Source: Bacteroidales bacterium | Lineage (GTDB): Bacteria; Bacteroidota; Bacteroidia; Bacteroidales; UBA4417 | DNA length: 64,000 nt | Assembly: GCA_035403165.1 (NCBI GenBank) | Contig: DAONEP010000006.1 | Coordinates: 1,496 to 65,495, forward strand | Direction of reading: 5' to 3' | Part shown: positions 16,500-56,606 of the stretch, piece by piece | Numbering within the stretch: position 1 is the stretch's first letter | Layout of the letters: the number at the start of each line of letters is the position of its first letter | Notes under the pieces: model-generated | Database searches by the model: none | Told to the model about the DNA's origin: nothing | The model's input: only the letters and a program-made list of their open reading frames with translations | Made by a program: the position numbers and the translations under genes

Positions 16500-16670
16500 G
16501 TTTAAAAGAAATCATTTTATTCCTTCAATGATTCCCGGCCGGTAGTTCCGAACATGATTCTCAGTAAATTTACCGCCTTTCAGACGCTCAACCGCCGAGC
16601 GGCCAGCCCTGGCAGAGCCGTCAACGGATACAAAATCAGAAATAACCCAATCAAAAATCAAAATAATATA

Positions 16671-18485
16671 ATGAAGCGGATTACTGTTTTTTTGCTTGCA
16701 ACCTTTGCTTTTACCACCGTTTATGCCCAGCAGTGGAAGCCTGCCGGCGAAAGGATAAAAACGATTTGGGCCGAAAAGGTCGATCCGGCCAATCCTTTGC
16801 CCGAATACCCCAGACCCGGCATGGAACGGGCCCGGTGGCAAAACCTGAACGGCCTGTGGGATTATGCCATCCTGCCCAAAGGAAGCGCCATCCCTTCCGC
16901 TTTCGACGGGAAAATACTGGTTCCTTTCGCTGTTGAATCAAGCCTGTCGGGTGTTCAGAAAAGCGTGGGTGAGAACAATGAATTATGGTATAGTCGTTCA
17001 TTTTTGATACCAGCAGACTGGAAAAGCAACCATATCCTCCTGAATTTCGGCGCCGTCGACTGGAAAGCCGATATCTGGATCAACGGCATTCAGATCGGAA
17101 CACACCAGGGGGGATACACTCCTTTCTGTTTCGACATCACTCCCTACCTACTGGCCGGCAAACCGCAGGAACTGGTCGTACGGGTATGGGACCCCACCGA
17201 CAGGAGTTTTCAGCCTCACGGCAAACAGGTTTCAAGGCCCGGCAGCATCTGGTACACCGCTGTAACCGGTATCTGGCAGACTGTATGGATTGAACCGGTC
17301 GGTGAAAATCATATTCAGTCGCTGAAAACAGTTCCCGACATCGATCGGAATACCGTCACGGTAACCCCGGTGACTTCAGCGCCCGATCCTTCTGCCCTGG
17401 TTGAGGTCACCATACTGGAAGGCGAAAAAGTCATTTCGAAAGGCAGGGGTATTTCAGGGCAGCAAATTCTCCTTCCGGTGCCTGATGCAAAACTGTGGAG
17501 CCCTGAATCGCCTTTCCTGTATGATATGCAGGCAGAAGTGATCCGCAACGGCAAAGTGACCGACAAGGTGAAAAGCTACCTGGGAATGCGGAAGATTTCT
17601 TCCAAACGGGATGAAGGCGGAGTTGTGCGCCTGCAACTCAACAACAAGGATTACTTCCAGTTTGGCCCCCTTGACCAGGGTTGGTGGCCCGACGGGCTTT
17701 ATACCGCCCCCACGGATGAAGCGCTGAAATACGATATCGTTAAGACAAGGGAACTGGGCTTCAACCTGATCCGTAAGCATGTGAAGGTGGAACCGGCCCG
17801 CTGGTATTACCATTGCGACCATGAAGGAATCCTGGTATGGCAGGACATGCCCAGCGGCGACGAAGGCCCTGAATGGCAAACCGAACAGTATTTCAACGGG
17901 CAGGATGCGGTTCGTTCGGCTGAATCGGAAACCAATTACAGGAACGAATGGAAAGCCATCATCGATCTGCTGGTCTCCCATCCCTGCGTTGTGAGCTGGG
18001 TGCCCTTTAATGAATCCTGGGGCCAGTTTAAAACCGTTGATATAGCCCAGTGGACGAAGCAGTATGATCCGTCGCGATTGGTAAACCCGGCCAGTGGCGG
18101 CAATTTTTACCCTGTGGGCGATATCCTCGATATCCATCATTACCCGGATCCGAAAATGACGCTTTACGACGGCAACCGCGCCTGTGTTCTTGGAGAATTC
18201 GGTGGCATCGGGCTTGTCATCGATGACCACCTGTGGGTAAAGGACCGAAACTGGGGATATGTGCAGTACAAGACCTCGGCCGAAGCCACCGATGCCTATA
18301 TCGCGCTGGTCGAAAAACTGAAATTGCTGATTGAAAAGGGCTTTTCGGCCGCCATCTACACCCAGACCACCGATGTGGAGGTGGAAGTAAACGGTCTGAT
18401 GACTTACGACCGCAAGGTAGTGAAGCTCGATGCCGACAGGATCGGGAAGGTGAACCGGGAAGTGTGCGGTGCGCTGGGAAAGTAG
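16671..18485 (+). CDS. Glycoside hydrolase family 2
   Basis: The signal peptide reads MKRITVFLLATFAFTTVYAQ. GH2 motifs seen are HQGGYTPFCFDIT, WVPFNESWGQ and LGEFGG. Confidence 0.85.
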   Translation: MKRITVFLLATFAFTTVYAQQWKPAGERIKTIWAEKVDPANPLPEYPRPGMERARWQNLNGLWDYAILPKGSAIPSAFDGKILVPFAVESSLSGVQKSVGENNELWYSRSFLIPADWKSNHILLNFGAVDWKADIWINGIQIGTHQGGYTPFCFDITPYLLAGKPQELVVRVWDPTDRSFQPHGKQVSRPGSIWYTAVTGIWQTVWIEPVGENHIQSLKTVPDIDRNTVTVTPVTSAPDPSALVEVTILEGEKVISKGRGISGQQILLPVPDAKLWSPESPFLYDMQAEVIRNGKVTDKVKSYLGMRKISSKRDEGGVVRLQLNNKDYFQFGPLDQGWWPDGLYTAPTDEALKYDIVKTRELGFNLIRKHVKVEPARWYYHCDHEGILVWQDMPSGDEGPEWQTEQYFNGQDAVRSAESETNYRNEWKAIIDLLVSHPCVVSWVPFNESWGQFKTVDIAQWTKQYDPSRLVNPASGGNFYPVGDILDIHHYPDPKMTLYDGNRACVLGEFGGIGLVIDDHLWVKDRNWGYVQYKTSAEATDAYIALVEKLKLLIEKGFSAAIYTQTTDVEVEVNGLMTYDRKVVKLDADRIGKVNREVCGALGK

Positions 18486-18580: not shown

Positions 18581-18785
18581 CATATCATGTGGTATGATTC
18601 CACATATTGCAGCTGAAGAGCGGTATGAACCGGCTTCACTGACGAAAGCCGGCGGAGCTGTTTTTGATGAAATGTAACGCGTTTTACAAATCTTCTCCTG
18701 TTTACAGAAAATATCCGATCATCCGGTTATTCCCGAAGTCTCGTTCAACCTTATTCTTTTCAGTCTGAGCTACAGTGCGTTTGTC

Positions 18786-41226: not shown

Positions 41227-41296
41227 TGGCTGTCTGATTTCTGTTTATACATTCACTGATCAGATCAGGTAAATTGATGAATATATATAACACTTG

Positions 41297-41304: not shown

Positions 41305-41472
41305 AAAGAAAACGATAAAAATCTCAATAAAAGTTATTTACATAATTTTGTTTATTACCTGATTAAAAGCGCTTAACGATGAGAGGCGTTACTGTTGAAC
41401 TGAAATAGCTGCAATCGTTAATTTCATCAATATAAATTTTAAAGAAGTACTATATGATAATGTAAAGCGCTT

Positions 41473-43117: not shown

Positions 43118-43769
43118 TTTCTATTGTATAGTCTAAATTCTCTTGATTTATCGGTGGTATAAAAATAAAGAGGTCAAACTAACCTGTATACCTGTATTCC
43201 GGAATATCTTTCCGGCAATTCTGCCTCAGGTTTTAAGTTATTCCGGAATGTTCGGATCCATCATCCGGGTTTTTATCTTTCAAAGTTGATAATAATCATT
43301 GAAATCATCAAATAGAAGCATAACAGAAATAACCTTTTCGAATTCTCTTTCAGCAAAACCTGCTGATTTATAGCCCGGTGAAATGCGCTTCATCTCCGCA
43401 TTTCCTCCGTATCAACGCTCTGACAGAACCAGTTCATTAAGGGGTCAGGTTCGCTTTGAAGCCGATCTATGTGCAGACAAAAGGCATCCTCAAACCGTTT
43501 ATGAAGCGAACCTGGTATATCCCTGATATAGCGCCGGCATGATCCTGGCAAGCGCTCGGATACATTCAGAATCATAATTCATAAGGGTTTTTGTCAATTC
43601 CCCTGCTTCCCCCGTTTGATTGACAGGCTCTATTTGTCAGGAAGAATATGACAGGAGGATGTAAAATGATGCAAAGCATTCCGCCGGCGGGCTTTTGCAT
43701 GCTAATTGTCAGTTCATTCATGGTCTGCATAAGTTGCAGACAGCAAATAAACCTTAAGGACAAAATGTT

Positions 43770-44432
43770 ATGAGCAAAAATAAACTCAACTTACCTGATA
43801 TTTTTCGGGGTAAAATCGGAAACCTGATCATTTCAAGCTGGAAAGGCAGAACCTATGTGAAAATGAAACCGGAAAAAATTAAGGATGCCAGAACGCCGGA
43901 TCAGCTCATACAGCGGACGAAATTTGCCACGATAAGCCGGATACTATCTCCGTTGTCGCCTTTTCTGCGGTTAGGTTTTGGCTCATACGCACAAAAGATG
44001 ACATCCTATAATGCTGCTATTTCATGGAACATGAAGAAAGCAATAGCCGGCGCCGGCAGCCAGTCCGGAATTGACTATGGCGGATTTCTGTTCTCCAAAG
44101 GAACTTACGTCTCAGTTGACAAGGCGGCATTCATTCCGGCAGGCAATCTCACCCTGGATTTGTCATGGAACCCTGAACATGAACCCGGTGCAGGAAGAGA
44201 TGATGACCGGGTTTATGCCGTTGTCGTCAATGAGACCCTGGGGGAATCAAATTATTTTGCCGATATAGCCTTCAGGTCTTCCGGCAGCGCCAGGATCCAT
44301 TTGTCTGCAGCCCAGCCAGGCGATACAGTTCACTGCTATCTGACCGTCATCAATTCGGTTAAAGGCACCGACGGAAAAAACAGGCAATATATTGCCGACA
44401 GCATATACTTAGGCAAGGCTGTTCTTAGTTAA
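43770..44432 (+). CDS. Hypothetical protein, paralog 1 (possibly the DUF6266 family)
   Basis: The N-terminus FRGKIGNLIISSWKGRTYVKMKPEKIKDARTPDQLIQRTKF parallels paralog 2. Confidence 0.55.
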   Translation: MSKNKLNLPDIFRGKIGNLIISSWKGRTYVKMKPEKIKDARTPDQLIQRTKFATISRILSPLSPFLRLGFGSYAQKMTSYNAAISWNMKKAIAGAGSQSGIDYGGFLFSKGTYVSVDKAAFIPAGNLTLDLSWNPEHEPGAGRDDDRVYAVVVNETLGESNYFADIAFRSSGSARIHLSAAQPGDTVHCYLTVINSVKGTDGKNRQYIADSIYLGKAVLS

Positions 44433-44862
44433 GAATTTTCATAAAATCAGGTAACGTTCCGCCCCCCCTTATTCATACTGTAATGTCTTCCCCGGGAACG
44501 CCGGCTTTATTTTTTGAGTTTGTTTTATCCAGGGGCCGGCAGATTCTTTCTTTGTAAGAAGTAGATCTCCGGCATCCATTGAAGAATAATCCTTTTTTTT
44601 TAGCAAAATTCGTCAATCCCGTCTGATACACAGGCTGATATATTGTTAAACCTGCCTAAATGAGTGTCACGGTGACATACCCTCCGAAATCGGTTGCAGT
44701 GTTTTGCACATCGTGTCACTGACACTGTCAGGGTATTAATGACATGTCCGGGCAGGGCAGGGCAATAGTATGCAAAAAAATCCCGGGAATAACTATTCCC
44801 TGAAAATTGATGAATGGCAAGTATCTGCGGCAATGTCGCTGCAGTGTAAAAATTATAACATT

Positions 44863-45525
44863 ATGGCAACCTTTAAACAAGGAATCCATGGAAACTTCAA
44901 GGGTAAGGTCGGCAACATTGTCGGCTCCACCTGGAAGGGTACGGGCGTAATGAGGATCCGCCCTGCTTCAGTTAAAAACCCCAATACCGAGCTTCAGCAG
45001 GCCCAGCGCCAACGCTTTGGATTGGTCGGGCGCTTTATACAGGCGCACCGTAATTTAGTGAACATAGGTTTCAAAGCCTATTCTCCCGGCATGACAGCTT
45101 CCAACGCCGCAATGTCGTACAATCTGGCTAATGCCATCAGTGGTGAATTCCCGGATCAGGCTGTTGATATGACGAAAGTTCAGATCAGCCGTGGCATCCT
45201 CGCACCCCTGACGGCAGCCGAAATTACCTCCACTGCTCCGGCAACCATCGGGTTGGCATGGAGTAACAACTCAGGCATGAGCAATGCCAACGAAACCGAT
45301 CACATATCGGTAAGCTGTTACGACGCCTCCACAGGGGAAGTTGTCTATTTCCTGAACTGCGCTGTGCGTTCTGATGGCAACGTAACGCTGAACCTGGCGG
45401 CAGAGTGGTCGGGTAAAACCCTGCATGTACTGGCATTTTTCAATTCGCTGAAAAATCCGTCGGATGCGGTTTCACGCGAGTTGATCTCCAACACGGCCTA
45501 TGCCGGTTCGGTTGTTCTGTCCTGA
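44863..45525 (+). CDS. Hypothetical protein, paralog 2 (possibly the DUF6266 family)
   Basis: MATFKQGIHGNFKGKVGNIVGSTWKGTGVMRIRPASVKNPNTELQQAQRQRF. I chose the ATG at 44863 rather than the track start at 44770. Confidence 0.55.
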   Translation: MATFKQGIHGNFKGKVGNIVGSTWKGTGVMRIRPASVKNPNTELQQAQRQRFGLVGRFIQAHRNLVNIGFKAYSPGMTASNAAMSYNLANAISGEFPDQAVDMTKVQISRGILAPLTAAEITSTAPATIGLAWSNNSGMSNANETDHISVSCYDASTGEVVYFLNCAVRSDGNVTLNLAAEWSGKTLHVLAFFNSLKNPSDAVSRELISNTAYAGSVVLS

Positions 45526-45551
45526 TATTAGCGGCATTCTTATCAAAGGAA

Positions 45552-45585
45552 AGAGGCTGCTGATAACCGGCAGCCTCTTTTTTTC
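45552..45585 (+). terminator. Rho-independent terminator
   Basis: agaggctgc-tgataaccg-gcagcctct followed by a T run. Confidence 0.6.
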
Positions 45586-45696
45586 AGTCAGGTTTTTGCA
45601 TTATGTATGATAGAATGTAATATCTACTCAAATCATAAAACAAAATTGTCACAATAAATGTATAACAGTCGTTTAGTCTGAAGATATCGAACTATT

Positions 45697-45895
45697 CCGA
45701 ATACCGAACCGGTATAGGATTCAGGGGGGTGGCATATCTTACCCCCTGGCTTTCATCATTTATTATTGAACTCCGACATGGTCTTTGCCATTCCCGCCAG
45801 AATAAAGCTCTTTACCATTTCTACTGCCGTATTGATGCGGGGAATGAGGATTTTTCCCTCCGAAGAACTCCAACGGCCCACGACTTCCGGCCAGA
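45697..45895 (-). pseudogene. Duplicated 3' fragment of pth with its downstream flank (repeat copy A)
   Basis: It aligns by eye to 52981-53165 with a few substitutions and small indels. It encodes ...GRWSSSEGKILIPRINTAVEMVKSFILAGMAKTMSEFNNK, against the Pth C-terminus ...GRWSSSEEKILIPRINTAVEMVKSFILAGTAKTMSEFNNK. Confidence 0.8.
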
Positions 45896-46189
45896 AGGTC
45901 TGTTGGCTGTCATCATAGAAACCGGCAAGGATAATATTGAGGAAACCGACAGAGATCAGCGCGATAGATGCGATCATGATGATGTTGCGGGTCCGGTAGA
46001 TGCAGTTGCGGATGATCTGATTCCGGTTTCACAGGGCAACCAGCTTGTCAGAACGCTGGAAAAATAGCTTTTACTCATGATCATTCATAAAATACCGGGA
46101 ATCATGATGATTTTCTGTATTTTTATTTCTGATTTAACAGATACTATACCAGTGTTTTAAGCTGAATTTTTTTCTAATTTGCGACCGTT

Positions 46190-48301
46190 ATGCATAACAA
46201 TTTCAAACAAACTGGTTTGTCGGTGCTTCTACACCCTGCAACATTAGCTTTGCCGGTAGCCCTGATTTTTATCCATATTCTTCCGGATGTTTACGACAAA
46301 TATACCATCCGGCTCGACCATGAAAAAATCCATCACGACGATTCAAGGTTCGAATACTACGATCTGGATCACGACGGCATTTCGGAATGTAATTATGTAG
46401 GCTGTAATGCTATCAGCGGGTCAGCCATAGTAGTCCACAATCAGTTGGGTATTGTTCATCATTGGGATTTTAAAGGGAAGTTTTTAACGGATAAGGACAG
46501 ATGCCTGGTTGGTGATTGCGACAATAACGGCAAAGATGAAATATATGCGTTTACCTATACGACGGATTCACTTTTACTTAATGGGATTGATTACCGGAAT
46601 CAGGGCCGGTTTATTATACATAACAAATTAATAATCAGGATAAAGCGATATAACAACGAGGTAGATTTTAATCTTAAACTCATTACCCTGACTGATTTGG
46701 ATGGAGATCGTTTTAAAGAACTTGTTTTTGCGACATCAACCGGTTACGGGGTGAAACCCAGACGGGTATATGCTTACGATATTAAGAGGGACAGCCTTTA
46801 CTCATCTCCCGAATTGGGAGGCCATATCGGTCCATTCGATGTTAAAGATATTAATGGCGACGGGTTTAAAGAAATTGCAGTGTCCAATTACGGTCCGGGC
46901 AACAATCACGATTTGACTGATAAAATGCCTGATACCTGCGCTTATGTTCTTGTGCTCAACAACAGCCTGAATTTCCTGTTCCCTCCTATCCCATTCCCGG
47001 GGAAATATAATGGAATCTATAGTCAATTTATCCGCGACGGGAATCGATACCTGTTGGCCACTTACTGGTCGCTTAACAGCCAGTTGCCAGGTAATCCTGA
47101 AATCAAAATATTCGATGCAAAAGGAAAAATGTTATATGAAAGGAAATTTCCTGTCCGGTCAAGATCACAGGAGAAGAATATAGAGGTTATTGAAACCAGG
47201 AAAGGCTGTGATAAGTTGTTGTTGATTCCTCATTATGGAAATCTATCGGCTTTCAACGTCCGGTTACATTCGGTCAGAATCCCTGAAGTCGGGAATGGAG
47301 AGCCCGGTCACATAAAATTTGATTTTGATCAGGATGGCCGGCAGGAACTATTACTCAAATCTGTGAAACCCGGCGAATGGATTATTCTCAGAAATTCGCT
47401 TAAAAATCCGGTAATGCTTAAAATGCAGGAATGTCAGCGTTTACCTGCTATTTTCCTGATCCTCAATAAGAGTGAAAAACCAAAATTCAGCCTGCAGCTT
47501 GATGAACACGAGTATGTATACAAGTATAGCTTCAACCCTCTTTATTATTGGAAATATCCCCTGTACACAGGCATCTATCTGAGTGTTTTCCTCTTTATCA
47601 TGCTTATCCGTTATATTCTTAAAATTCAGATAAAGAAAAAATATGAAGCAGAGAAGCGCTTAACCGAAATGCAGTTGAATGCCATCCACAGCCAGATGGA
47701 TTCCCATTTTACATTCAACGTAATAAATACGATCGGGTCGGCCATATTAAAAGAAAATAAGGGACCTGCATATATTTTGCTCACCCGTTTTTCAAATCTT
47801 CTGCGGTCAACGCTTGCCGATTCTGACAGTGTTACCCGTAAATTATCCGGAGAATTACTATTCGTGAGAAACTTTCTTGAAATTCAAAAAACTCGTTTCA
47901 AGAATGTGTTCGATTACGAGATTATAGAAGACAATCCGTCTGCCACCGATCAGTTGGTCCCAAAAGGTTGTATACAGACTTACGTGGAAAACTCCATCAA
48001 ACATGGGCTGAGTAACAGGAAGAGCGGCGGAAAGATTACTATAATAACAAAAGCGGCATCAGACAAATTGATAATAACCGTCGAAGATAACGGAATTGGC
48101 CGGGCTGCAACTCCTATCAGGAAAGAAGGCTCTACAGGCAATGGTATCAACCTGATGCATCAGTATTACGAAATTCTTAACAGGAATAACAGTGATAAGA
48201 TAACTGAAGAAATCATTGATCTATACGGCCCGGAAGGCAAACCTGCAGGAACGCGGGTCGTCATAACTATCCCCGGCGGATTTGATTTCGGTAAAAAATG
48301 A
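46190..48301 (+). CDS. LytS/YehU-type sensor histidine kinase with an N-terminal FG-GAP/VCBS-like repeat sensor domain
   Basis: Repeated DxDxDG-like motifs are DLDHDGISE, GDCDNNGKDEIY, DLDGDRFKELVF, DINGDGFKEIAV and FDFDQDGRQELL. One TM helix follows (LYTGIYLSVFLFIMLIRYIL). The His_kinase region reads LNAIHSQMDSHFTFNVIN, and an HATPase region follows. Confidence 0.85.
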   Translation: MHNNFKQTGLSVLLHPATLALPVALIFIHILPDVYDKYTIRLDHEKIHHDDSRFEYYDLDHDGISECNYVGCNAISGSAIVVHNQLGIVHHWDFKGKFLTDKDRCLVGDCDNNGKDEIYAFTYTTDSLLLNGIDYRNQGRFIIHNKLIIRIKRYNNEVDFNLKLITLTDLDGDRFKELVFATSTGYGVKPRRVYAYDIKRDSLYSSPELGGHIGPFDVKDINGDGFKEIAVSNYGPGNNHDLTDKMPDTCAYVLVLNNSLNFLFPPIPFPGKYNGIYSQFIRDGNRYLLATYWSLNSQLPGNPEIKIFDAKGKMLYERKFPVRSRSQEKNIEVIETRKGCDKLLLIPHYGNLSAFNVRLHSVRIPEVGNGEPGHIKFDFDQDGRQELLLKSVKPGEWIILRNSLKNPVMLKMQECQRLPAIFLILNKSEKPKFSLQLDEHEYVYKYSFNPLYYWKYPLYTGIYLSVFLFIMLIRYILKIQIKKKYEAEKRLTEMQLNAIHSQMDSHFTFNVINTIGSAILKENKGPAYILLTRFSNLLRSTLADSDSVTRKLSGELLFVRNFLEIQKTRFKNVFDYEIIEDNPSATDQLVPKGCIQTYVENSIKHGLSNRKSGGKITIITKAASDKLIITVEDNGIGRAATPIRKEGSTGNGINLMHQYYEILNRNNSDKITEEIIDLYGPEGKPAGTRVVITIPGGFDFGKK

Positions 48302-48346
48302 GTATTCAGAATTTACAACAGGTTGAACCTAAATAATATTTGTACC

Positions 48347-49099
48347 ATGAAACAGAGATATACCGCCATGATCGTCGATGACGAGCCTGAAGCCATTGCT
48401 TCGATGGAAATTCTCCTGGAAGGAATTGAAGATATTGAGGTTGTATGTTGCGCCACGGAGCCTGAAAAAGCGCTCACTTTATTCAGGCATTGGAAGCCCG
48501 ATTTGTTGTTTCTCGATATTCAAATGCCAGCTCTCAGCGGATTTGAAATTCTTGAAAGACTGTATTTGCTGCATTATGGTCCCTGCGTGATTTTTACCAC
48601 CGCGTATGATAAGTACGCTCTGCAGGCTATCAAGGCAGGGGCTTTCGATTACCTGCTCAAACCGGTTGATATGGATGAGCTTAGAAAGACCGTGACAAAG
48701 GCAGTGGAAAAATGCAAAGCATTCAACATTGAACAAAGGCTTTCTGACCTAGAAAAAGCTGTACAGAACCACCGAAAGCTGCGCTTTAATACCCGAAGTG
48801 GTTTCATCCTCATCCATCCGGATGAAATTTTCTATATCGAAGCAGATGCAAACTATTCTGAAATATTTTTATCGAAAGAGAATTGCGAGGTGGTATCAAT
48901 GAATATTGGTACTGTTGAAGAAATATTGCCAAAACAATTTATTCGAATAAATCGTTCCGTGATAATTAATTCCCACTATTTAACTAAAGTATCGGGTGTC
49001 AATAAAAACTGTACGCTTAAAAAAGACGAAGATGAAATAACTTTAAGTGTTCCCGATAAGCAGATGCCGGACTTGAAAAGACGGTTTGGAGAACGCTGA
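48347..49099 (+). CDS. LytTR-family response regulator
   Basis: The receiver domain reads MIVDDEPEA...LLFLDIQMP. The C-terminal LytTR domain reads FYIEADANYSEIF...FIRINRSVIIN. I chose the ATG at 48347; the track uses the TTG at 48323. Confidence 0.9.
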   Translation: MKQRYTAMIVDDEPEAIASMEILLEGIEDIEVVCCATEPEKALTLFRHWKPDLLFLDIQMPALSGFEILERLYLLHYGPCVIFTTAYDKYALQAIKAGAFDYLLKPVDMDELRKTVTKAVEKCKAFNIEQRLSDLEKAVQNHRKLRFNTRSGFILIHPDEIFYIEADANYSEIFLSKENCEVVSMNIGTVEEILPKQFIRINRSVIINSHYLTKVSGVNKNCTLKKDEDEITLSVPDKQMPDLKRRFGER

Positions 49100-49233
49100 C
49101 ATCATGATTTACACTATTCTTAATAAAATGGATCACAGCTTCATGTGGTATTTAAGTTCCTTCATACAACAAATGCCTCATTTTTAAAGCAAGGAATCGA
49201 TCAAAACTATTTTTGATTCGCAAACCTTTAAAG

Positions 49234-52200
49234 ATGATAGCTATGAAAACAAGAATTTTTATCTACTTGATTGTGCTAGTAATTAGCATCATCAATAAAG
49301 AATCAAAAGCATTGAATGTATCATCTCCCATTGCAACATATACGATTGCTGATTGTTTATGGGCAGATAATATTGACATGGATGGAGATGGGTACACCCG
49401 GTCAAGGACTTTATGCACGGATGTTAATGTAAATGACGGGGCAATACACAGTATCTATTTGAAAATATACTGTAAGATTGCTAGTGCCACGTCTTATACG
49501 CTGTATTATACGACGTCGAATTATAATATTACCGGAACCTCATCCGGGGATTTTAATTTCGTTACGATAGGTTTACCCAATATCGAACTGGACCAGAATA
49601 CATATGATTTTAAAGTAGCGGCATATGAAGCTGGAGGTACGACTGTTGTAGCTTCAAAAGATGCGACCACTGACATTGACCTGAATGATCAGGATTTCGA
49701 AACAGCAGTTCAGGATCCGGAAATATATGATTGTATTCCTGATGTTGAGTATATTCAAATAAATGGAACTGATGTTCCTTTCAGTAGTACGGTGGATTTA
49801 ACATTAAATAGTCTGAATGATTCTTTCCTCATTAGGTTACGTGGCGAAAACGATGGTACCGATATGGCCCCTGCCAATTTAAGTAACCTCACTATCTCCT
49901 TTCAGCAATTCACTTCTTCAGCCGACAAGAATCTTATCACAATTAACTCTTCTACCAATTCTGATCTGACTATGACTAAGTATTTTGGCTCCGAGGCAAC
50001 CGGAGGAGATGGTTATGCAGATTATGTTATGGTCGAAGGCACTGACAACAATGGTTGGGACCCGAATGAAAGCAACAATATTTATCTGAATGTAAAACCC
50101 AAAGACTGGGGCCAATTTCCTATTGAGTTCAGGATGGGTCTGCCCACTGATAATTCCTGGGCAAATTTCTTGCATGACCCTAATGGAGGTTATTGTCCAT
50201 CATGTAATGAATCCACCATTGGTATAGACCCAATTAAATTTGTGAGTTACTGGATTGTTCTGAACATCAATCAACCAATTACAAATTATACGATTACAAC
50301 CTCTCCTAATCCACCTGAAGGCGGCTCTACATCAGGAGATGGAACTTATCCTAATGGCTCAACCTGCACGGTTACAGCAGAACCAAATAACTGCTACCAG
50401 TTTGTTAATTGGACTGAGAATGGCAATGTGGTTTCAAACTCTGCATTATACTCGTTTACCGTTAATGGTAACCGAAACCTGGTTGCCAATTTTTCAACTA
50501 TTAACTATACCATTAATACTTCATCGAATCCTCCTGCCGGAGGTTCCACGAGCGGTGGGGGCACAAAGCAATGTGGCTCAACCTGCACGGTTACAGCAGA
50601 ACCAAATAACTGCTACCAGTTTGTTAATTGGACTGAGAATGGCAATGTGGTTTCAAACTCTGCATTATACTCGTTTACCGTTAATGGTAACCGAAACCTG
50701 GTTGCCAATTTTTCAACTATTAACTATACCATTAATACTTCATCGAATCCTCCTGCCGGAGGTTCCACGAGCGGTGGGGGCACAAAGCAATGTGGCTCAA
50801 CCTGCACGGTTACTGCTACACCAAACAACTGTTACCAGTTTAATAATTGGACCGAAAATGGCACTGTAGTTTCAACATCTGCATCCTACCAGTTTACAGT
50901 CAATGGAGACCGTAACCTTGTTGCTAACTTTTCCATCATCAATTACACAATAACCACTTCTGCAAATCCGACAGCCGGTGGCTTAACAAATGGCGGCGGC
51001 TCTTTTGCCTGTGGTTCAACCTGCACATTAATAGCTAGTCCTAATACCTGTTACCAGTTCGTTAGCTGGACTGAAAACGGTAATGTGGTTTCCAACTCGG
51101 CAACATATTCATTTACAGTTAACAGCAATCGCAACCTTGTGGCTAACTTTTCCATTACCAGTTACACCATAACCACTTCATCTAATCCAGCAGCCGGTGG
51201 CTTAACAAGTGGCGGCGGCTCTTTTGCCTGTGGTTCAACCTGCACCGTAATAGCTACACCTTCTACTTGTTATGAGTTTGTCAATTGGACAGAAAACGGC
51301 AATGTGGTTTCCACATCTTCCACATATTCCTTCACAGTAATTAGTAATAGAAATCTTGTCGCTAACTTTTCCATTATCAGTTACACCATAACCACTTCAT
51401 CTAATCCAGCAACCGGTGGCTTAACAAGTGGCGGCGGCTCTTTTGCCTGTGGTTCAACCTGCACCGTAATAGCTACACCTTCTACTTGTTATGAGTTTGT
51501 CAATTGGACAGAAAACGGCAATGTGGTTTCCACATCTTCCACATATTCCTTCACGGTAATTAGTAATAGAAATCTTGTCGCTAACTTTTCAATACTCTAT
51601 CCCACAATTAATACTTCATCCAACCCATCAGCCGGTGGCTTAACAAGTGGATGTGGTTCAACGCCTTGTGGCTCTACGTGTTGTGTAACAGCCACACCCA
51701 ATACTTGTTACCAGTTTGTCAATTGGACTGAGAATGGTAATGTGGTTTCCACCTCTGCTTCTTATTGTTTTACATTAAATTGTAACAGAAATCTTGTTGC
51801 AAACTTTTCTATAATCCAGTATTCTATCACTACCTCCTCATACCCCGATGAAGGTGGTACGACTTCAGGAGGCGGAATAAAAGATTGTGGATTAAAGTGT
51901 ACCGTCACAGCTACGCCAACTTATCTATATCAACTTACATGCTGGACGGAGAACGGTGTGATTGTCACAGATAGTTTATCATTTACTTTTACGGTGAATT
52001 CTGATAGGAATTTGGTAGCCAACTATATTTCTACAGGCATCGATTTAAAATTAAAAAATAATCCGGTCACGGTTGTTCCTAATCCATTCATGTCAAGTAC
52101 CCAAATAGTATTAGATTTGACGAATGGTGCTGAGGTGACACAGTATCTCAAAGATGCAGTTGGCAGAACAGTTGGGATTGTTAGATACAGAGATATTTTA

Positions 52201-52329
52201 TCTTCCGGTAAAGACAATTTCAGGCTTGAGACTGGCAACTTATCCGCTGGCATCTACTATCTTGAAACAATAATCGACAGAGTGCGCTTTGTAAACAAAC
52301 TAATTAAAACTGAGTCAATAAGCTATTAA
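49234..52329 (+). CDS. Secreted repeat protein with eight 73-aa Listeria-Bacteroides/InlB-B-like repeats and a T9SS C-terminal sorting domain
   Basis: It has a signal peptide. The repeat unit reads YTI.TSSNP.AGG.TSGGG...CGSTCTVTA.PN.CYQFVNWTENGNVVS.S..YSFTV...RNLVANFS. The C-terminus reads VVPNPFMSSTQIVLDL...LSAGIYYLETI...KLIK. Confidence 0.85.
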   Translation: MIAMKTRIFIYLIVLVISIINKESKALNVSSPIATYTIADCLWADNIDMDGDGYTRSRTLCTDVNVNDGAIHSIYLKIYCKIASATSYTLYYTTSNYNITGTSSGDFNFVTIGLPNIELDQNTYDFKVAAYEAGGTTVVASKDATTDIDLNDQDFETAVQDPEIYDCIPDVEYIQINGTDVPFSSTVDLTLNSLNDSFLIRLRGENDGTDMAPANLSNLTISFQQFTSSADKNLITINSSTNSDLTMTKYFGSEATGGDGYADYVMVEGTDNNGWDPNESNNIYLNVKPKDWGQFPIEFRMGLPTDNSWANFLHDPNGGYCPSCNESTIGIDPIKFVSYWIVLNINQPITNYTITTSPNPPEGGSTSGDGTYPNGSTCTVTAEPNNCYQFVNWTENGNVVSNSALYSFTVNGNRNLVANFSTINYTINTSSNPPAGGSTSGGGTKQCGSTCTVTAEPNNCYQFVNWTENGNVVSNSALYSFTVNGNRNLVANFSTINYTINTSSNPPAGGSTSGGGTKQCGSTCTVTATPNNCYQFNNWTENGTVVSTSASYQFTVNGDRNLVANFSIINYTITTSANPTAGGLTNGGGSFACGSTCTLIASPNTCYQFVSWTENGNVVSNSATYSFTVNSNRNLVANFSITSYTITTSSNPAAGGLTSGGGSFACGSTCTVIATPSTCYEFVNWTENGNVVSTSSTYSFTVISNRNLVANFSIISYTITTSSNPATGGLTSGGGSFACGSTCTVIATPSTCYEFVNWTENGNVVSTSSTYSFTVISNRNLVANFSILYPTINTSSNPSAGGLTSGCGSTPCGSTCCVTATPNTCYQFVNWTENGNVVSTSASYCFTLNCNRNLVANFSIIQYSITTSSYPDEGGTTSGGGIKDCGLKCTVTATPTYLYQLTCWTENGVIVTDSLSFTFTVNSDRNLVANYISTGIDLKLKNNPVTVVPNPFMSSTQIVLDLTNGAEVTQYLKDAVGRTVGIVRYRDILSSGKDNFRLETGNLSAGIYYLETIIDRVRFVNKLIKTESISY
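50278..52030 (+). repeat. Tandem array of 8 x 219 bp inside the T9SS protein gene
   Basis: The motif ggctcaacctgcacggtta recurs at 50356, 50575 and 50794, giving a 219-bp period. Copies 1/2 appear identical over about 240 bp. Copies 5/6 (about 51157 and 51376) are nearly identical. Confidence 0.9.
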
Positions 52330-52349
52330 TTAAGGTTGCAGGCTCAGTA

Positions 52350-52382
52350 TGGACGCTTCGTTATGACGGACGGAGCGTCCAT
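52350..52382 (+). terminator. Possible terminator hairpin after the T9SS repeat gene
   Basis: ggacgcttcg-ttatgacgga-cggagcgtcc has one mismatch and a weak T tail. Confidence 0.35.
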
Positions 52383-52542
52383 TTAATCTCGAGCATATTT
52401 ATTTTCTAATTCATTCCATCATTCGCTTGAACTGAATATTCCTGGCAAACCAGGCCAGTGATTCCCTGCCAAAGGCAGGCAGGCGGAGTAAAGTAGGCCA
52501 CTTAGCAATTAACGGTGGGAGTGCAAAAAATAGCTCTTTTCT

Positions 52543-52650
52543 TTATTGAGTTTTCTTTCTGAGAGATTCCCTTTTGAGTTCAATCCGATGGTTCTAACCT
52601 TCCAATCTTTCCACTATTGCATCGGGGAGGGTGGGTTTATCCGGTTATTA
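52543..52650 (-). pseudogene. Remnant of an IS21-family istB (helper ATPase) C-terminus
   Basis: The minus-strand translation is PDKPTLPDAIVERLEG*NHRIELKRESLRKKTQ*. The IstB C-terminal consensus as I remember it is ..PT.ADAILDRL.HNAHRIELKGES.RK. There is an in-frame stop, and the frame is broken further upstream. Confidence 0.5.
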
Positions 52651-52980
52651 GTATCATGATTTTACGGGGAGTTTTGTAAGCAAACGTTGATAAGCATCCT
52701 TTATGTCGTCTGCATGCTGCGTACAGGAATTGTTTGTCCGTTTTGTATAAAAAATGAGCCGGTCCAGTTGAGCAGAACCCTGTTAAATAATTCGGGTATG
52801 TTTGGTTCCGCTTGCCGCTGGCAGGGTATGGTGGCTTGTTTTTGTCCAGAATATTCACAAAAACGGAAGAATAGAATTAATTTTCGTTGTTTCCAAACAA
52901 CACTTTTCAGGTTATGCTGTTGTGACAAAACAACAGATGATCCTCTATAAATCATGAAACTAAAACAATGGATTAGACTA

Positions 52981-53165
52981 TTACGAATACAGAACCGGTA
53001 TAGGATTCAGGGGGGCATATCTTACCCCCTTGGCTTTCATCATTTATTATTAAACTCCGACATGGTCTTTGCCGTTCCTGCCAGAATAAAGCTCTTTACC
53101 ATTTCTACCGCCGTATTGATGCGGGGAATGAGGATTTTTTCCTCCGAAGAACTCCAGCGGCCCAG
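52981..53165 (-). repeat. Repeat copy B: the 3' end and downstream flank of the intact pth gene
   Basis: It is the partner of 45697-45895, in the same orientation. Confidence 0.8.
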
Positions 53166-53609
53166 CACATACTCCACCTGGAATCCCCTGGCATAATCCT
53201 TTCCGATCCCCACCCGAAGCCTGGGAAAATCGGTCGTCCCCAAGGTTTCGATGATATGGTTCAGCCCGTTATGGCTGCCGCCGCTGCCCCTGGCGCGCAT
53301 ACGCAATGTTCCGAGGTCCAGGTCCACATCATCGGCGATCACCAGGATGTTCCCCGGTTCGATTCCTTCCTTTTCCATCCAGTATTTCACGGCTTTGCCG
53401 CTCAGGTTCATGTAGGTTGTCGGCTTGATGATGAACAGTTGTTTGTTCTTCAGCCTGGCTTCGGTCACCGAAGCGTGGCGCCCGATGGTAAATTTCACGC
53501 CCAGGTCGGCAGCCAGTGCATCGGCAACGATAAACCCGATGTTATGACGCGTATTTGCATATTCGTCGCCGATATTGCCAAGTCCGGTAATCAGGTATTT
53601 TTCAGGCAT
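53040..53609 (-). CDS. pth: Peptidyl-tRNA hydrolase
   Basis: KYLITGLGNIGDEYANTRHNIGF and GGSHNGLNHI match the family. I chose the start at Met29 of the track ORF. Confidence 0.9.
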   Translation of the reverse strand: MPEKYLITGLGNIGDEYANTRHNIGFIVADALAADLGVKFTIGRHASVTEARLKNKQLFIIKPTTYMNLSGKAVKYWMEKEGIEPGNILVIADDVDLDLGTLRMRARGSGGSHNGLNHIIETLGTTDFPRLRVGIGKDYARGFQVEYVLGRWSSSEEKILIPRINTAVEMVKSFILAGTAKTMSEFNNK

Positions 53610-53762
53610 CGATGATATTTTCTGTATTTCGAACCACGAATTTACATGAATAGGGAGAATGCCGGTTTTTATTCGCGGCATTATTTCGTGCATTGCCTAT
53701 AAATGATAACAGGCGCAAAGTGGTTCACCCTGCGCCTGCCATTTAAAAAACTTCTGCTTTGT

Positions 53763-54338
53763 TTACTGTTTTTCCGGCTCGGGAGTACCTTCAACAGCAC
53801 GTGTCGAAGCAATAGAAACAACAGTACTGGTAGCAATATCAAGCATCTGAACATGATCTATTTTGATATCTCCAACCTTGATCATATCATTGATGTCCAG
53901 TTCGGTGATGTCGATCAGTATTTCGTCGGGCAGATGCTCAGGAAGCGCTTTTACTTTCAGTTTGCGGAATTTCTTTACCATCCTGCCGCCGCGAAGGACA
54001 CCTTTCGAGCTGCCCTGGATACGGATAGGCAGTGATACAACGATCGGTTTGCCGGCAATGAGTTCCAGAAAATCGACATGGAGGATTTCATCCGTAACCG
54101 GATGATACTGAACCTCTTTAAGGATCGTTTTGTACTGCTGTTTGTCAACAGTGAGGTTGATCAGATGAATGTACGGGGTAAAAATGACCGGTCCGAAGTC
54201 TTTTTCGTCAACAACGAAATGAACTTCTTCCTTTCCACCGTACAACACGCAGGGGATCTTGCCGTCGGCCCTGTTTTTGCGTGCATCCTTTTTCCCTACG
54301 TTCTCGCGAAGAGAACCGCTCATGGATACAGTTTTCAT
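53763..54338 (-). CDS. rplY: 50S ribosomal protein L25 / general stress protein Ctc
   Basis: GKKDARKNRADGKIPCVLYGG...VQYHPVTDEILHVDF matches the family. It sits in the classic pth-ctc-prs neighbourhood. Confidence 0.9.
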   Translation of the reverse strand: MKTVSMSGSLRENVGKKDARKNRADGKIPCVLYGGKEEVHFVVDEKDFGPVIFTPYIHLINLTVDKQQYKTILKEVQYHPVTDEILHVDFLELIAGKPIVVSLPIRIQGSSKGVLRGGRMVKKFRKLKVKALPEHLPDEILIDITELDINDMIKVGDIKIDHVQMLDIATSTVVSIASTRAVEGTPEPEKQ

Positions 54339-54361
54339 GTTGTGTAATTGTTGGTTTTTAA

Positions 54362-55294
54362 TTATTTGAATTGAAACAATGAGGAGATGGATTCAAAATT
54401 CTCCACTCTTTTTATTACGTCGGCCAATAAATCGGCCGTGGTAAGCACTTTAATCTTTGAACTGGGACGTTTCAGCGGAATGGTATCCGTTACAATAATT
54501 TCATCGAAAGCTGAATTTTCGAGACGGTCGTAAGCATTTCCCGAAAGTATCGGGTGCGTGGCCATGCAACGCACACTGGCTGCACCGTTGTCGACCATAA
54601 TCTGCGCTGCTTTGGTAATGGTGCCGCCGGTATCGATAATATCATCGAGCAGGATAACATCTTTCCCTTTCACGTCGCCGATAAGTTGCATGGTTTCGAC
54701 CAGGTTGGCTTTTAACCGCTGTTTATAGCAGATCACAAACGAAGCATCCATGGCCTTGGCATAAGCGGCAGCCCTGCGTGTTCCGCCGGTATCGGGTGAA
54801 GCAAAAACCAGGTTGGGGAGGTTCATGCTCTTGATATAAGGCAGGAATATTGAAGAGGCATACAGGTGGTCAACCGGTAAATCGAAGAAGCCCTGTATCT
54901 GGTCGGCATGGAGATCAATGGTGATAATCCTGTTAACCCCTGCCGCGGTGATCAGGTTGGCAATCAGTTTGGCTGTAATCGGCACACGGGGCTTATCTTT
55001 GCGGTCCTGACGGGCAAACCCGAAGTAAGGCATAACGGCAATGATTTGCCTCGCTGAGGCGCGTTTGGCCGCATCCACCAGCATCAGCAACTCAAAAAGG
55101 TTTTCGGCAGGCGGAAAAGTGGACTGGACAATGAACACATCACGGCCGCGCAGATTTTCCTCGAATGAAGTGTTGAATTCGCCATCGCTGAATACAGTAA
55201 CCTGCACTTCACCTAACGGCTGGCTGTATGAAAAAGCTATTTTTTCTGCCAGGTAACGGGTAGCCCTGCCTGAAAATATTTTAATTTGTGCCAT
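54362..55294 (-). CDS. prs: Ribose-phosphate pyrophosphokinase
   Basis: MAQIKIFSGRATRYLAEKIA, YFGFARQDRK and DDIIDTGGT match the family. I chose the start at Met71 of the track ORF. Confidence 0.9.
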   Translation of the reverse strand: MAQIKIFSGRATRYLAEKIAFSYSQPLGEVQVTVFSDGEFNTSFEENLRGRDVFIVQSTFPPAENLFELLMLVDAAKRASARQIIAVMPYFGFARQDRKDKPRVPITAKLIANLITAAGVNRIITIDLHADQIQGFFDLPVDHLYASSIFLPYIKSMNLPNLVFASPDTGGTRRAAAYAKAMDASFVICYKQRLKANLVETMQLIGDVKGKDVILLDDIIDTGGTITKAAQIMVDNGAASVRCMATHPILSGNAYDRLENSAFDEIIVTDTIPLKRPSSKIKVLTTADLLADVIKRVENFESISSLFQFK

Positions 55295-55527
55295 GATGGA
55301 ATTGTTTTCACCAAACCGTTGCAAAATTAGAAATTTTTCGAAACCCGGCAACGTTTTCTGTTCAGCCATCATGGAAAAGCAGTCAGAAATAAGCAGGAAA
55401 GACCAGCGCCCCGGACAAAAAACTGTTTCCGGTTCCCTTATCTCTCTGATAAAGTTAACGGATAAGCCGACCTGCTTAATGAAATGCCGGATAACTGCCG
55501 GCATTCGTAAAAGAATGCCTGTGTGGA

Positions 55528-56073
55528 TTAGTCCAACAATTTTTTACTCAGCCGCCTGACCAAAAAAACGATCAATCCTAAAATCGAAACGACAATAATC
55601 ACATACCAGATTATGTGATCAAGAAATACAAAATACCGGTGAATGACCTTCCCCAGGGAAAAGCCCAGCAGGCTGAATGCCGAAACCCAAACCAGAATTG
55701 CCATTACACTGTACAGCATGAATTTCCTGGTCGTGATGCTGCTTACCCCCAGCATCATAAGCGTCACGACCCTGAACCCATACATAAACCTGTATAAGAA
55801 CGACATCAACCGCGGATTGCGCTCCAGCCTGACGGGTGACTTCTGCATTCTGCGCTGAAGGGAAGGGAACCTTTTCAGGAAATGCCCGCCTAAAAACCTG
55901 GTGCTGAAGAACACGCCCCAGTCTACCATCAGCGTACCTGTGAAGGCAACCAGAAACAGGATCCAAAATTCCAGGTGTGCATTCTGCGCTGCAATGCAGG
56001 CCGACAACAAGGCTATTTCCCCTTCCATTGAGACGCCTGCAAATACAGCCAAATATGCGTAAACTGAATTCAT
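55528..56073 (-). CDS. DedA/VTT-family membrane protein
   Basis: 181 aa and polytopic. FAGVSMEGEIALLSA and the RFMYGFRVV region are DedA-like. Confidence 0.75.
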   Translation of the reverse strand: MNSVYAYLAVFAGVSMEGEIALLSACIAAQNAHLEFWILFLVAFTGTLMVDWGVFFSTRFLGGHFLKRFPSLQRRMQKSPVRLERNPRLMSFLYRFMYGFRVVTLMMLGVSSITTRKFMLYSVMAILVWVSAFSLLGFSLGKVIHRYFVFLDHIIWYVIIVVSILGLIVFLVRRLSKKLLD

Positions 56074-56294
56074 GATGCGGACGGCTACTTATGGCAGATT
56101 AATGACGAATTGGTTTCGGCCTGTGCAAAGTAGTCCGTTTTTGTGACAAAGATGCAATTTATCGGGAATAAAATTTGAATTTAAACTATTACTAACCGGC
56201 AGAATGAGTTGAGTAATTCAAAACAGGCCTCACCCCTGCCCCTCTCCCCGACAGGGCGGGGCAAGCCCTGAAGGCGAGGAACTGCCCTTTGAAC

Positions 56295-56327
56295 AGACCC
56301 TGAAGGTTTTTGAAACCTTCAGGGTCT
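56295..56327. repeat. 15-bp perfect inverted repeat (palindromic intergenic element)
   Basis: agaccctgaaggttt-ttg-aaaccttcagggtct. Confidence 0.7.
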
Positions 56328-56390
56328 AACGAGCCACCCGCACGAAGGGATCACGAATTAGAATTGTAAAATACCGGTTTTCGTGATAAT

Positions 56391-56582
56391 CCGTGTTCCG
56401 GCGATGCCCGTTTCGTGTAATTCGTGGTTAAGTTTTCTCCACGAATTTTCACGAATGAAACACGAATGGACACAAATTATTTTTTCAGATTGCCGGGGAG
56501 GCATTTCGTGGTAATTCGTGTTCCGGCGCAGCCTGATAAGTGTAATTCGTGGTTGCTTTTTCTCCACGAATTTTCACGAATT
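56391..56582. repeat. Two direct copies (about 66 nt, spaced 125 nt) of a CACGAAT-rich intergenic repeat
   Basis: Copy 1 reads cgtgttccggcg...gtgtaattcgtggttaagttttctccacgaattttcacgaat. Copy 2 reads cgtgttccggcg...gtgtaattcgtggttgctttttctccacgaattttcacgaat. Confidence 0.7.
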
Positions 56583-56606
56583 GAAAAATCATCGCTTTCG
56601 CCGAAG

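What the first reader, a model, noticed from the sequence alone, without database searches (positions are those of the whole stretch)
45697..53165. Direct duplication of about 190 bp of the pth 3' end bracketing a 7.3-kb segment (att-like scar of an integrated or rearranged element)
45697-45895 and 52981-53165 align in the same orientation with only a few substitutions and small indels. Both cover the last 45 codons or so of pth plus about 55 nt downstream. The right copy belongs to the intact gene. The left copy is an orphan fragment fused to unrelated sequence.

This is the pattern left by an element that integrates into the 3' end of a gene and supplies a replacement end. The enclosed cargo is a LytS/LytTR two-component system, a T9SS repeat protein and an IS21 remnant. 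No integrase is present, so the element may be decayed, or the duplication may be IS-mediated.
Basis: seen in the sequence. Interest (0 to 1): 0.6.

Follow-up and report, generated by a model that had tools for sequence, protein, structure and literature searches.

The report
Orphaned pth gene end beside foreign DNA
The repeat is real: a stray copy of the last ~190 bases of the housekeeping gene pth sits 7.1 kb from the intact gene, with foreign genes between. It looks like an ordinary recombination scar at a highly variable chromosome junction, not the footprint of a self-integrating element.

Summary
Window 45691-45880 and 52977-53164 are direct repeats (179/191 identical, E 1e-80) and the only two copies in the genome. 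Each covers the last ~41 codons of pth plus 63 nt downstream.

The att-scar reading is only partly supported.
- The 7.1 kb between the copies is foreign: low GC and no counterpart in 44 congeners.
- It lies inside a larger variable interval of ~34.5 kb between convergent GH2 and pth genes. That interval is 1.5 kb in the nearest relative and ~45 kb in another.
- No tyrosine recombinase lies on the contig, and no serine recombinase was found in the genome. None sits next to pth in ten congeners, whose downstream neighbours differ widely.
- A ~99%-identical strain lacking the block keeps homology ~95 nt beyond the repeat's outer edge, so that edge is not an element boundary.
- The nearest relative has an analogous orphaned end of the other gene (GH2) at the same junction.
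- The orphan shares variants with other strains' working pth alleles.

Best reading (about 0.55): 3'-end displacement by one-sided homologous plus illegitimate recombination, or a single crossover through the ~190-nt homology. A decayed integrase-less element remains possible (about 0.2).

This is ordinary genome plasticity.

The parts
45691..45880 (-). Orphan copy of the pth 3' end: last ~41 codons, the stop, and 63 nt downstream ('D')
   Evidence: 94% identical to 52977-53164. It is identical in all 8 strain contigs that carry it.
52977..53164 (-). Matching stretch that belongs to the intact pth gene and its 63-nt downstream region D
   Evidence: Contiguous with pth. Polymorphic among strains (95-98% identity).
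53040..53609 (-). Intact pth (peptidyl-tRNA hydrolase, 189 aa), last gene of the conserved prs-L25-pth block
   Evidence: Pfam PF01195, E 2e-60. The exact protein is found in other assemblies.
45756..45977 (-). 73-aa chimeric ORF: 32 unrelated hydrophobic N-terminal codons fused in frame to the orphaned pth end. Probably not a real gene.
   Evidence: No Pfam hit.
45881..46189 (.). Unassigned junction segment between the orphan and the kinase gene. The inner breakpoint is at 45880/45881.
   Evidence: No paralogue in the genome. No significant match in 300 genomes of the order or in 44 congeners.
45582..45690 (.). 110-nt AT-rich spacer between the DUF6266 gene's terminator-like hairpin and the orphan. 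The outer breakpoint is at 45690/45691.
   Evidence: Homology with G016 stops at 45581. Not alignable with the flank of the right copy.
46190..48301 (+). Cargo: membrane histidine kinase (FG-GAP region plus LytS-type His_kinase/HATPase_c)
   Evidence: Pfam. Best homologues are <=36% aa identical in the order, with none in the genus.
48347..49099 (+). Cargo: LytTR-type response regulator (250 aa)
   Evidence: Pfam Response_reg plus LytTR. The exact protein occurs on 9 contigs, and all 7 places shown have the same arrangement.
49243..52329 (+). Cargo: surface repeat protein with eight Flg_new_2 (InlB B-repeat-like) domains and a weak T9SS sorting-tail match. Repeat number varies between strains.
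   Evidence: Pfam. 219-nt tandem repeats. 1028 aa versus 882 aa between strains.
52432..52677 (-). Degenerate remnant of an IS21-family element: last 43 IstB codons with 4 stops, plus the IS terminus
   Evidence: 70% identical to the end of a 2768-bp IS that is intact in G005. Pfam shows IstA and IstB in that IS. tblastn hit.
52878..52976 (.). 'D2': sequence just beyond the right copy's outer edge. It is shared (~80% identity) with a strain that lacks the cargo.
   Evidence: L053.
43770..45525 (+). Tandem DUF6266 genes flanking the orphan on the left. Also present mid-interval in G016.
   Evidence: Pfam. 71-86% aa identical to the G016 pair.
18594..18725 (+). Remnant of the start of a DUF4143 AAA-ATPase gene. 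It marks the left edge of the ~34.5-kb variable interval.
   Evidence: Homology to the intact G022 gene.
16554..18485 (+). GH2 glycoside hydrolase: the conserved left anchor of the variable interval, convergent with pth
   Evidence: Pfam. Synteny with G022 and G016.

Best explanation
The left copy is a displaced, orphaned 3' end of pth. It is a by-product of recombination at the boundary between the conserved prs-L25-pth block and a hypervariable interval. It is not an att site.

Incoming DNA from a related strain carried its own pth end. It was fixed in one of two ways:
- homologous exchange in a conserved flank plus an illegitimate join at the other end, at 45880/45881 (homology-facilitated illegitimate recombination, HFIR); or
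- a single crossover between the chromosome and a circular molecule sharing ~190 nt of pth-end homology.

Either route leaves one complete pth and a stranded fragment of the other allele, with the foreign kinase/regulator/surface-protein genes between them.

Shown: the repeat, the foreign cargo, the lack of a recombinase, the variability of the junction, and the allelic nature of the orphan.
Inferred: the recombination route and its direction.
For: 1. The GH2-to-pth interval is 1.5 kb in G022, 34.5 kb here and ~45 kb in G016. Ten congeners show at least six different gene sets downstream of pth, none with a recombinase.
2. No Phage_integrase hit lies on the contig, and there is no Resolvase hit in the genome.
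3. G022 carries an analogous orphaned ~100-nt 3' end of the other convergent gene (GH2), next to an inserted ATPase gene. A site-specific integrase would not be expected to target two different genes. Recombination anchored in whichever conserved flank is available would.
4. L053 (~99% identical, no cargo) shares ~95 nt beyond the repeat's outer edge.
5. The orphan shares five variants with other strains' functional pth ends. Its two unique coding changes that alter the protein are the kind expected after release from selection. Overall there are 4 synonymous and 2 non-synonymous differences.
6. The inner breakpoint falls inside the ORF, fused to unrelated sequence, and no inverted repeats lie at the segment ends.
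7. Both routes are documented. Single crossovers left 109-950 bp duplications of a gene end in E. coli (PMC3240628). HFIR-type displacement has been proposed to explain orphaned 3' regions in Vibrio T6SS and rhs loci (PMC5361080).
Against: - The predicted pre-insertion state (DUF6266-spacer-D-complete pth) was not found in any strain.
- The donor context of the cargo is unknown, so microhomology at the illegitimate junction cannot be checked.
- HFIR is rare where it has been measured, and DNA uptake is undocumented for this lineage.
- D2 is only ~80% identical between the window and L053, against ~99% in the genes beside it. It could instead be a conserved flank of two related elements.
- Mobile-element-type tyrosine recombinases exist elsewhere in the genome (C14, C129) and could act in trans.
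- The synonymous excess rests on six sites.
Confidence: 0.55

Rival explanations
1. Decayed integrative element, or an integrase-less cis-mobilisable element (CIME-like). A site-specific integrase once inserted an element into the pth 3' end. The element supplied the replacement end (right copy) and displaced the original (left copy). The integrase gene was later lost, or acts in trans.
For: - Direct repeats containing a gene's 3' end bracket foreign, low-GC DNA.
- The orphan lies on the distal side, next to older neighbours (the DUF6266 pair, shared with G016), as that model predicts.
- Tyrosine recombinases exist elsewhere in the genome.
- D2 at ~80% identity in L053 could be a shared att-flank of related elements.
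Against: - No recombinase in the 34.5-kb interval or on the contig.
- No recombinase beside pth in ten congeners.
- No clean empty site. The only alternative strain breaks ~95 nt outside the repeat.
- The same junction shows an orphaned end of a different gene in G022.
- pth was not found as a reported integration site in a full-text search (a weak negative).
Confidence: 0.2
2. IS21-mediated rearrangement. An IS21 copy near pth mediated a cointegrate, adjacent deletion or composite transposition that brought in the cargo and duplicated the pth end.
For: An IS21-family remnant lies between the cargo and pth at 52432-52677. L053 diverges from the window within 200 nt of its truncated edge.
Against: - There is only one ~245-nt, heavily degenerate remnant, with 4 stops in 43 codons.
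- It lies 300 nt from the repeat, with none at the left junction.
- IS21 makes target duplications of a few bp (general knowledge), not ~190 nt.
- No other IS21 copy was detected in the genome.
Confidence: 0.1
3. Local tandem duplication of the pth end region by replication slippage or unequal crossing-over, followed by independent insertion of foreign DNA between the copies and neutral decay of the spare copy.
For: The two copies are in direct orientation. The orphan's two unique non-synonymous changes and a 3-nt insertion look like decay.
Against: - Five of the orphan's differences are shared with other strains' functional alleles, which in-place decay does not predict.
- It needs extra independent events at both edges.
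- It does not explain the parallel GH2 orphan in G022.
Confidence: 0.1

Closest known systems
3'-end (C-terminal) displacement by HFIR-like events, as proposed for Vibrio T6SS effector-immunity arrays and rhs/CDI loci (Kirchberger et al. 2017, PMC5361080; Jackson et al. 2009, as cited there)
   Same: A conserved upstream part serves as the anchor. Incoming DNA brings a new 3' end plus new genes. The old 3' end is pushed downstream and persists as an orphan. No dedicated recombinase is involved. It recurs at the same locus.
   Different: Here the gene is a housekeeping enzyme whose two ends are near-identical alleles, not alternative toxin tips. The orphan has no plausible function or selective role. 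The cargo is unrelated to the anchor gene.
Single-crossover (Campbell-type) integration of a circular molecule through short homology (E. coli conjugation study, PMC3240628)
   Same: It produces a direct duplication of the homologous gene-end segment (109-950 bp there, ~190 nt here) flanking the inserted DNA, without site-specific recombination.
   Different: That was an engineered plasmid under selection. Here the circular intermediate is hypothetical.
Genomic islands and integrative elements that target the 3' end of a tRNA or protein gene and restore it, including integrase-less CIMEs of streptococci (from general knowledge)
   Same: Direct repeats that include the target gene's 3' end bracket foreign DNA, and the gene stays intact.
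   Different: There is no integrase, excisionase or transfer gene within the repeats. No related element sits at pth in relatives. The strain breakpoint does not coincide with the repeat edge.
Chromosomal hotspots of gene gain and loss between conserved core genes (general concept, from general knowledge)
   Same: One inter-core-gene interval (GH2 to pth) holds unrelated accessory DNA in different species and strains, including a defence island.
   Different: Nothing essential. This is a typical example, with an unusually legible scar.

Membership tests
Integrase-mediated island with att duplication (including CIME) | Direct repeats containing the target gene's 3' end flank the inserted DNA | tested here: met
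   190-nt repeat, 94% identity.
Integrase-mediated island with att duplication (including CIME) | Tyrosine or serine recombinase gene inside the element, normally next to one att site. (A CIME lacks its own and depends on one acting in trans.) | tested here: not met
   Pfam scans of ORFs of at least 120 aa across 18.5-53 kb. No PF00589 hit on the contig and no PF00239 hit in the genome.
Integrase-mediated island with att duplication (including CIME) | Related strains show an empty site equal to precise loss of the DNA between the repeats | tested here: not met
   At least 10 assemblies share the filled arrangement. The only alternative (L053, L055, L056) has other genes, and its breakpoint lies ~95 nt outside the repeat.
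Integrase-mediated island with att duplication (including CIME) | Related elements use the same att site in other genomes | tested here: not met
   Ten congeners examined downstream of pth: no recombinase and unrelated gene sets. The genus-wide integrase listing was truncated, so this is not exhaustive.
Integrase-mediated island with att duplication (including CIME) | Excision to a circle with re-formed attP and attB | not testable with these tools
HFIR-type 3'-end displacement | A conserved anchor gene borders non-homologous incoming DNA, and a complete gene is retained | tested here: met
   prs-L25-pth is conserved in relatives. The cargo has no counterpart in the genus.
HFIR-type 3'-end displacement | An orphaned 3' fragment lies distal to the insert, truncated at an arbitrary point and joined to unrelated DNA | tested here: met
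   The breakpoint at 45880/45881 lies inside the ORF, fused to an unassigned sequence.
HFIR-type 3'-end displacement | Short microhomology (a few bp) at the illegitimate junction | not testable with these tools
   The donor sequence beyond 45881 is unknown. No other context of the cargo was found.
HFIR-type 3'-end displacement | The orphan derives from a different allele than the retained gene | tested here: inconclusive
   Five orphan variants are shared with other strains' alleles, and differences are 4 synonymous to 2 non-synonymous. The numbers are small.
IS21 composite or IS-mediated transposition | IS copies or IS ends at both borders, with a target duplication of a few bp | tested here: not met
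   A single 245-nt remnant lies 300 nt from the repeat, with nothing at the left junction. The duplication is ~190 nt.

The most novel reading that the evidence does not exclude
The pth 3' end, and in G022 the GH2 3' end, could be insertion sites of an unrecognised mobilisation route in this Bacteroidota genus. Integrase-less cargo blocks bounded by 100-190-nt gene-end repeats would be moved in trans by a recombinase encoded elsewhere (for example the element-type tyrosine recombinases on contigs C14 and C129). That would make pth a new attachment site and the 7.1-kb block a cis-mobilisable element.
Probability: 0.1. Interest if true: 0.5.

Novelty: new member of a known kind. Interest (0 to 1): 0.25.

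Why it matters
As found, it matters little beyond annotation:
- The 73-aa and 112-aa ORFs over the orphan should not be called genes.
- The two-component system and surface protein should be flagged as strain-variable accessory DNA.
- The region between GH2 and pth should be treated as one hotspot that also holds the defence island studied by other follow-ups.

It is a clean natural example of how recombination at a hotspot border strands a gene end without any dedicated recombinase. It is also a caution against reading every gene-end duplication as an att site. If the minority reading were true, it would add a new attachment site and a trans-mobilised element class for Bacteroidota.

Tried and rejected
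1. I guessed that 45881-46070 (minus strand) was the N-terminus of an FtsX/MacB-type permease. There was no paralogue in the genome. The only hit in 300 genomes of the order was weak and signal-peptide-like (E 0.0075 per genome). I dropped the guess and the segment stays unassigned.
2. I called the G-rich hairpin in D a terminator. The consensus scan does not call it on either strand, so I describe it only as a hairpin.
3. Multiple pth matches in G014 and G006 suggested that pth might ride on elements. They turned out to be strain-variant contigs of one locus.
4. Rfam found nothing credible in 45400-53200 (one sub-threshold sRNA hit over the DUF6266 terminator-like hairpin).
5. Pattern scans of metagenome contigs (two) and genome contigs (one) for the D motif and the pth end returned nothing.
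6. Gene conversion between the copies was considered for the SNP cluster at 53136-53151. I rejected it because an intervening site disagrees with the orphan and other strains share the window's allele.
8. The genus-wide integrase listing was truncated, so I replaced it with direct annotation of pth neighbourhoods.
Full report
**1. Observation**

Alignment, repeat finding and BLASTN agree on a direct repeat: window 45691-45880 versus 52977-53164. Identity is 179/191 (8 substitutions, a 3-nt insertion and a 1-nt deletion), E = 1e-80. A search of the whole 3.29-Mb assembly finds only these two copies.

pth lies on the minus strand (53040-53609, 189 aa; Pfam Pept_tRNA_hydro, E 2e-60). It follows the L25 and prs genes. 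The repeat covers its last ~41 codons with the stop (125 nt) plus 63 nt downstream, which I call D. D contains a G6/C5 hairpin that a simple consensus scan does not score as a terminator.

The right copy is part of the intact gene. The left copy is an orphan. On its inner side (45880/45881) it is fused in frame to unrelated sequence, giving a 73-aa ORF. On its outer side (45690/45691) it meets a 110-nt AT-rich spacer and then the terminator-like hairpin after the second of two DUF6266 genes.

**2. What lies between and around the copies**

Between the copies:
- an unassigned 309 nt;
- a membrane histidine kinase (FG-GAP plus LytS-type His_kinase);
- a LytTR response regulator;
- a ~1030-aa surface protein with eight Flg_new_2 repeats and a weak T9SS tail.

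These are followed by ~650 nt of non-coding DNA. Within that stretch, 52432-52677 is the degenerate end of an IS21-family element. It is 70% identical to the terminus of a 2768-bp IS whose copies in relative G005 are 99.5% identical and have terminal inverted repeats. That IS encodes IstA (rve) and IstB (IstB_IS21). Only the last 43 IstB codons survive here, with four stops. The remnant's truncated edge is 300 nt from the repeat, and nothing comparable lies at the left junction.

The cargo has 37-43% GC against 47-53% in the core flanks. It has no DNA-level counterpart in 44 genomes of the genus, apart from repeat-domain hits and the IS end. The kinase's best homologues in 300 genomes of the order are at most 36% identical, with none in the two congeners sampled. 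So the cargo is foreign to this lineage.

**3. The segment is part of a much larger variable interval**

In the nearest relative G022 (a different species; its pth-L25 DNA is ~77% identical to the window's), window genes 7091-18485 are collinear. There the GH2 gene (window 16554-18485) ends only 1.5 kb from the convergent pth. The window therefore holds ~34.5 kb of extra DNA between GH2 and pth. From left to right:
- a remnant of a DUF4143 ATPase gene start (18594-18725);
- a YoeB/YefM pair;
- a defence island: macrodomain, giant DarT-domain protein, SF1 helicase, Piwi-domain Argonaute, ResIII helicase, ImmA/IrrE-HTH, AlbA_2 protein, DNA methylase;
- HTH_17, DUF6617 and two DUF6266 genes;
- the orphan, then the 7.1-kb cargo.

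In G016 the same interval is ~45 kb. It has the DUF6266 pair in the middle and ordinary metabolic and ABC-transport genes next to pth.

Downstream of pth, ten congeners show at least six unrelated gene sets:
- MatE;
- aldehyde dehydrogenases followed by MatE;
- ATP-grasp/NTP-transferase/MacB;
- a PKD/GEVED protein;
- TonB-dependent receptors;
- ATPase plus GH2.

In G014, strain-variant contigs differ by a 4-kb block of two broken aldehyde dehydrogenase genes that starts exactly at the pth stop. The pth-side flank is only 84% identical, while the other flank is 97.7%. This junction is a hotspot of gene gain and loss.

**4. Tests of the att-scar idea**

- *Recombinase.* Pfam scans of the ORFs of at least 120 aa from 18.5 to 53 kb found none. 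A six-frame search of the genome puts its Phage_integrase hits on contigs C3, C49, C14 and C129, none on this contig. It finds no Resolvase hit at all.
- *Relatives.* No recombinase sits next to pth in the ten congeners examined (section 3). A genus-wide integrase listing was truncated and could not serve as an exhaustive test.
- *Strains.* Exact-protein look-ups recover the window's arrangement, collinear at 98.4-100% identity, in at least ten independent metagenome, MAG and Logan assemblies.
- *One alternative strain* exists (L053, plus short contigs L055 and L056). It has the identical 189-aa Pth and ~99% DNA identity across window 52878-63814. But pth is followed there by D, then ~95 nt that align with window 52878-52976 ('D2', ~80% identity), then Peptidase_M54, Pmp3 and an EEP-family gene. 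A search of the window's genome did not find these genes. So homology between the strains runs through the right copy and ~95 nt past its outer edge.

Under a simple att model, the DNA immediately beyond the pth-proximal repeat should be element DNA. A strain without the element should not share it. The predicted empty site (pth followed directly by the sequence left of 45691) was not seen in any assembly.

**5. A parallel case on the other gene**

In G022, the intact GH2 gene is followed by a hairpin and an intact DUF4143 ATPase gene. Then, 20 nt from the pth stop, comes a second, decayed copy of the last ~100 nt of GH2. It ends exactly at the stop codon and contains in-frame stops. The window retains the hairpin and the first ~130 nt of that ATPase gene after GH2. 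That insertion therefore predates the split of the two species.

So the same junction has twice acquired DNA in a way that strands a gene's 3' end, once for each convergent gene. A site-specific integrase would not be expected to target two different genes. Recombination anchored in whichever conserved flank is available would.

**6. The orphan is an allele, not just a decayed copy**

- Across eight contigs that carry it, the orphan is invariant. The intact ends differ among strains by 1.6-4.9%.
- Of the orphan's differences from the window's own pth end, five are shared with functional pth ends of other strains: two substitutions and a 1-nt indel in D, and two synonymous sites.
- Its unique changes are a 3-nt insertion in the hairpin, two synonymous substitutions and two non-synonymous substitutions (Thr to Met, Glu to Gly).
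- In the coding part, the two copies differ at four synonymous and two non-synonymous sites.

This fits an allele that evolved under selection in another genome and then drifted a little after being stranded. The numbers are small, and I treat this as supportive only.

**7. Most likely mechanism**

The anatomy is what one-sided recombination produces. DNA from a related strain, carrying its own pth end at the border of its own version of the variable interval, recombines homologously in a conserved flank. Its other end is joined illegitimately. The two genomes' pth ends then lie in direct orientation, with the non-homologous DNA between them.

The direction cannot be resolved. Either the cargo came in with a fresh pth, or the DUF6266-side block came in ending inside the donor's pth.

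A single crossover between the chromosome and a circular molecule sharing the ~190 nt would give the same product.

Both routes are documented:
- In E. coli conjugation, most recombinants carried a 109-950 bp duplication of the lacZ end, from a single crossover with a circular molecule (PMC3240628).
- HFIR-like displacement has been proposed for orphaned 3' regions in Vibrio T6SS clusters and rhs loci (PMC5361080).

I put this reading at about 0.55. The rivals:
- a decayed or trans-dependent integrative element, about 0.2;
- an IS21-mediated event, about 0.1 (the single, old, distant remnant and the 190-nt length argue against it);
- a local duplication followed by insertion, about 0.1.

Assembly artefact is excluded by the independent assemblies.

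**8. Limits**

- Collection scans for the D motif and the pth end returned nothing, possibly because near-identical records are withheld.
- The identity of 45881-46189 is unresolved.
- The donor context is unknown, so junction microhomology cannot be examined.
- A full-text search found no report of pth as an island integration site. That is a weak negative.

**9. Verdict**

The feature is real and accurately described. Its meaning is ordinary: a recombination scar at a hotspot border, of a kind already known from other loci, here on a housekeeping gene. The novelty class is a new member of a known kind, and interest is low to moderate.

Earlier notes of this scan on the same window (IS21 remnant, DUF6266 pair, defence island, surface-protein repeats) were checked where they touch this finding and broadly agree. 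One correction: the IS remnant does not sit at the repeat border.

Noticed in passing
L029 (G022:C190) 15208-16767; orphan at 16649-16747: In the nearest relative, an intact DUF4143/AAA_14 ATPase gene is inserted between GH2 and pth. It is followed by a decayed second copy of the last ~100 nt of GH2, ending exactly at the stop codon, 20 nt from the pth stop.
   Followed up: partly
L086 (G014:C19) 4213-8210 versus L085/L087: Strain-variant contigs of one MAG differ by a 4-kb block of two frameshifted aldehyde dehydrogenase genes that starts at the pth stop. The pth-side flank is 84% identical and the other flank 97.7%. G013 has the same two genes intact.
   Followed up: partly
window 50355-51966: The 219-nt tandem repeats of the surface protein vary in number between otherwise identical strains (1028 aa versus 882 aa). 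They account for nearly all differences across 38347-53135.
   Followed up: partly
window 53136-53151: Three clustered SNPs inside pth (Ser/Ala polymorphism) are the only non-repeat differences between the window and six other strains over ~15-18 kb. This suggests a very short imported tract.
   Followed up: partly
window 18486-19322: The left edge of the variable interval keeps the hairpin and the first ~130 nt of the ATPase gene seen intact in G022. A YoeB/YefM toxin-antitoxin pair follows directly (Pfam E 7e-25 and 2e-16).
   Followed up: partly
window 56379-56460 and 56504-56586: An ~83-nt inverted repeat (85% identity) lies in the intergenic region between the DedA/VTT gene and metG. One strain (L045) also has a shorter metG call (646 aa versus 705 aa) and an alignment break near 56812-56869.
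   Followed up: no
window 52885-52940: D2 contains two short hairpins built on the motif AACAACA (GTTGTTTCCAAACAAC and CTGTTGTGACAAAACAACAG). They are conserved in the alternative strain L053 despite ~20% divergence around them.
   Followed up: no
L053 12500-12559; L055 and L056 ends: Assemblies of the alternative strain all stop ~45-60 nt after the EEP-family gene, two of them at the same base. This suggests a repeat or strain-variable junction there.
   Followed up: partly
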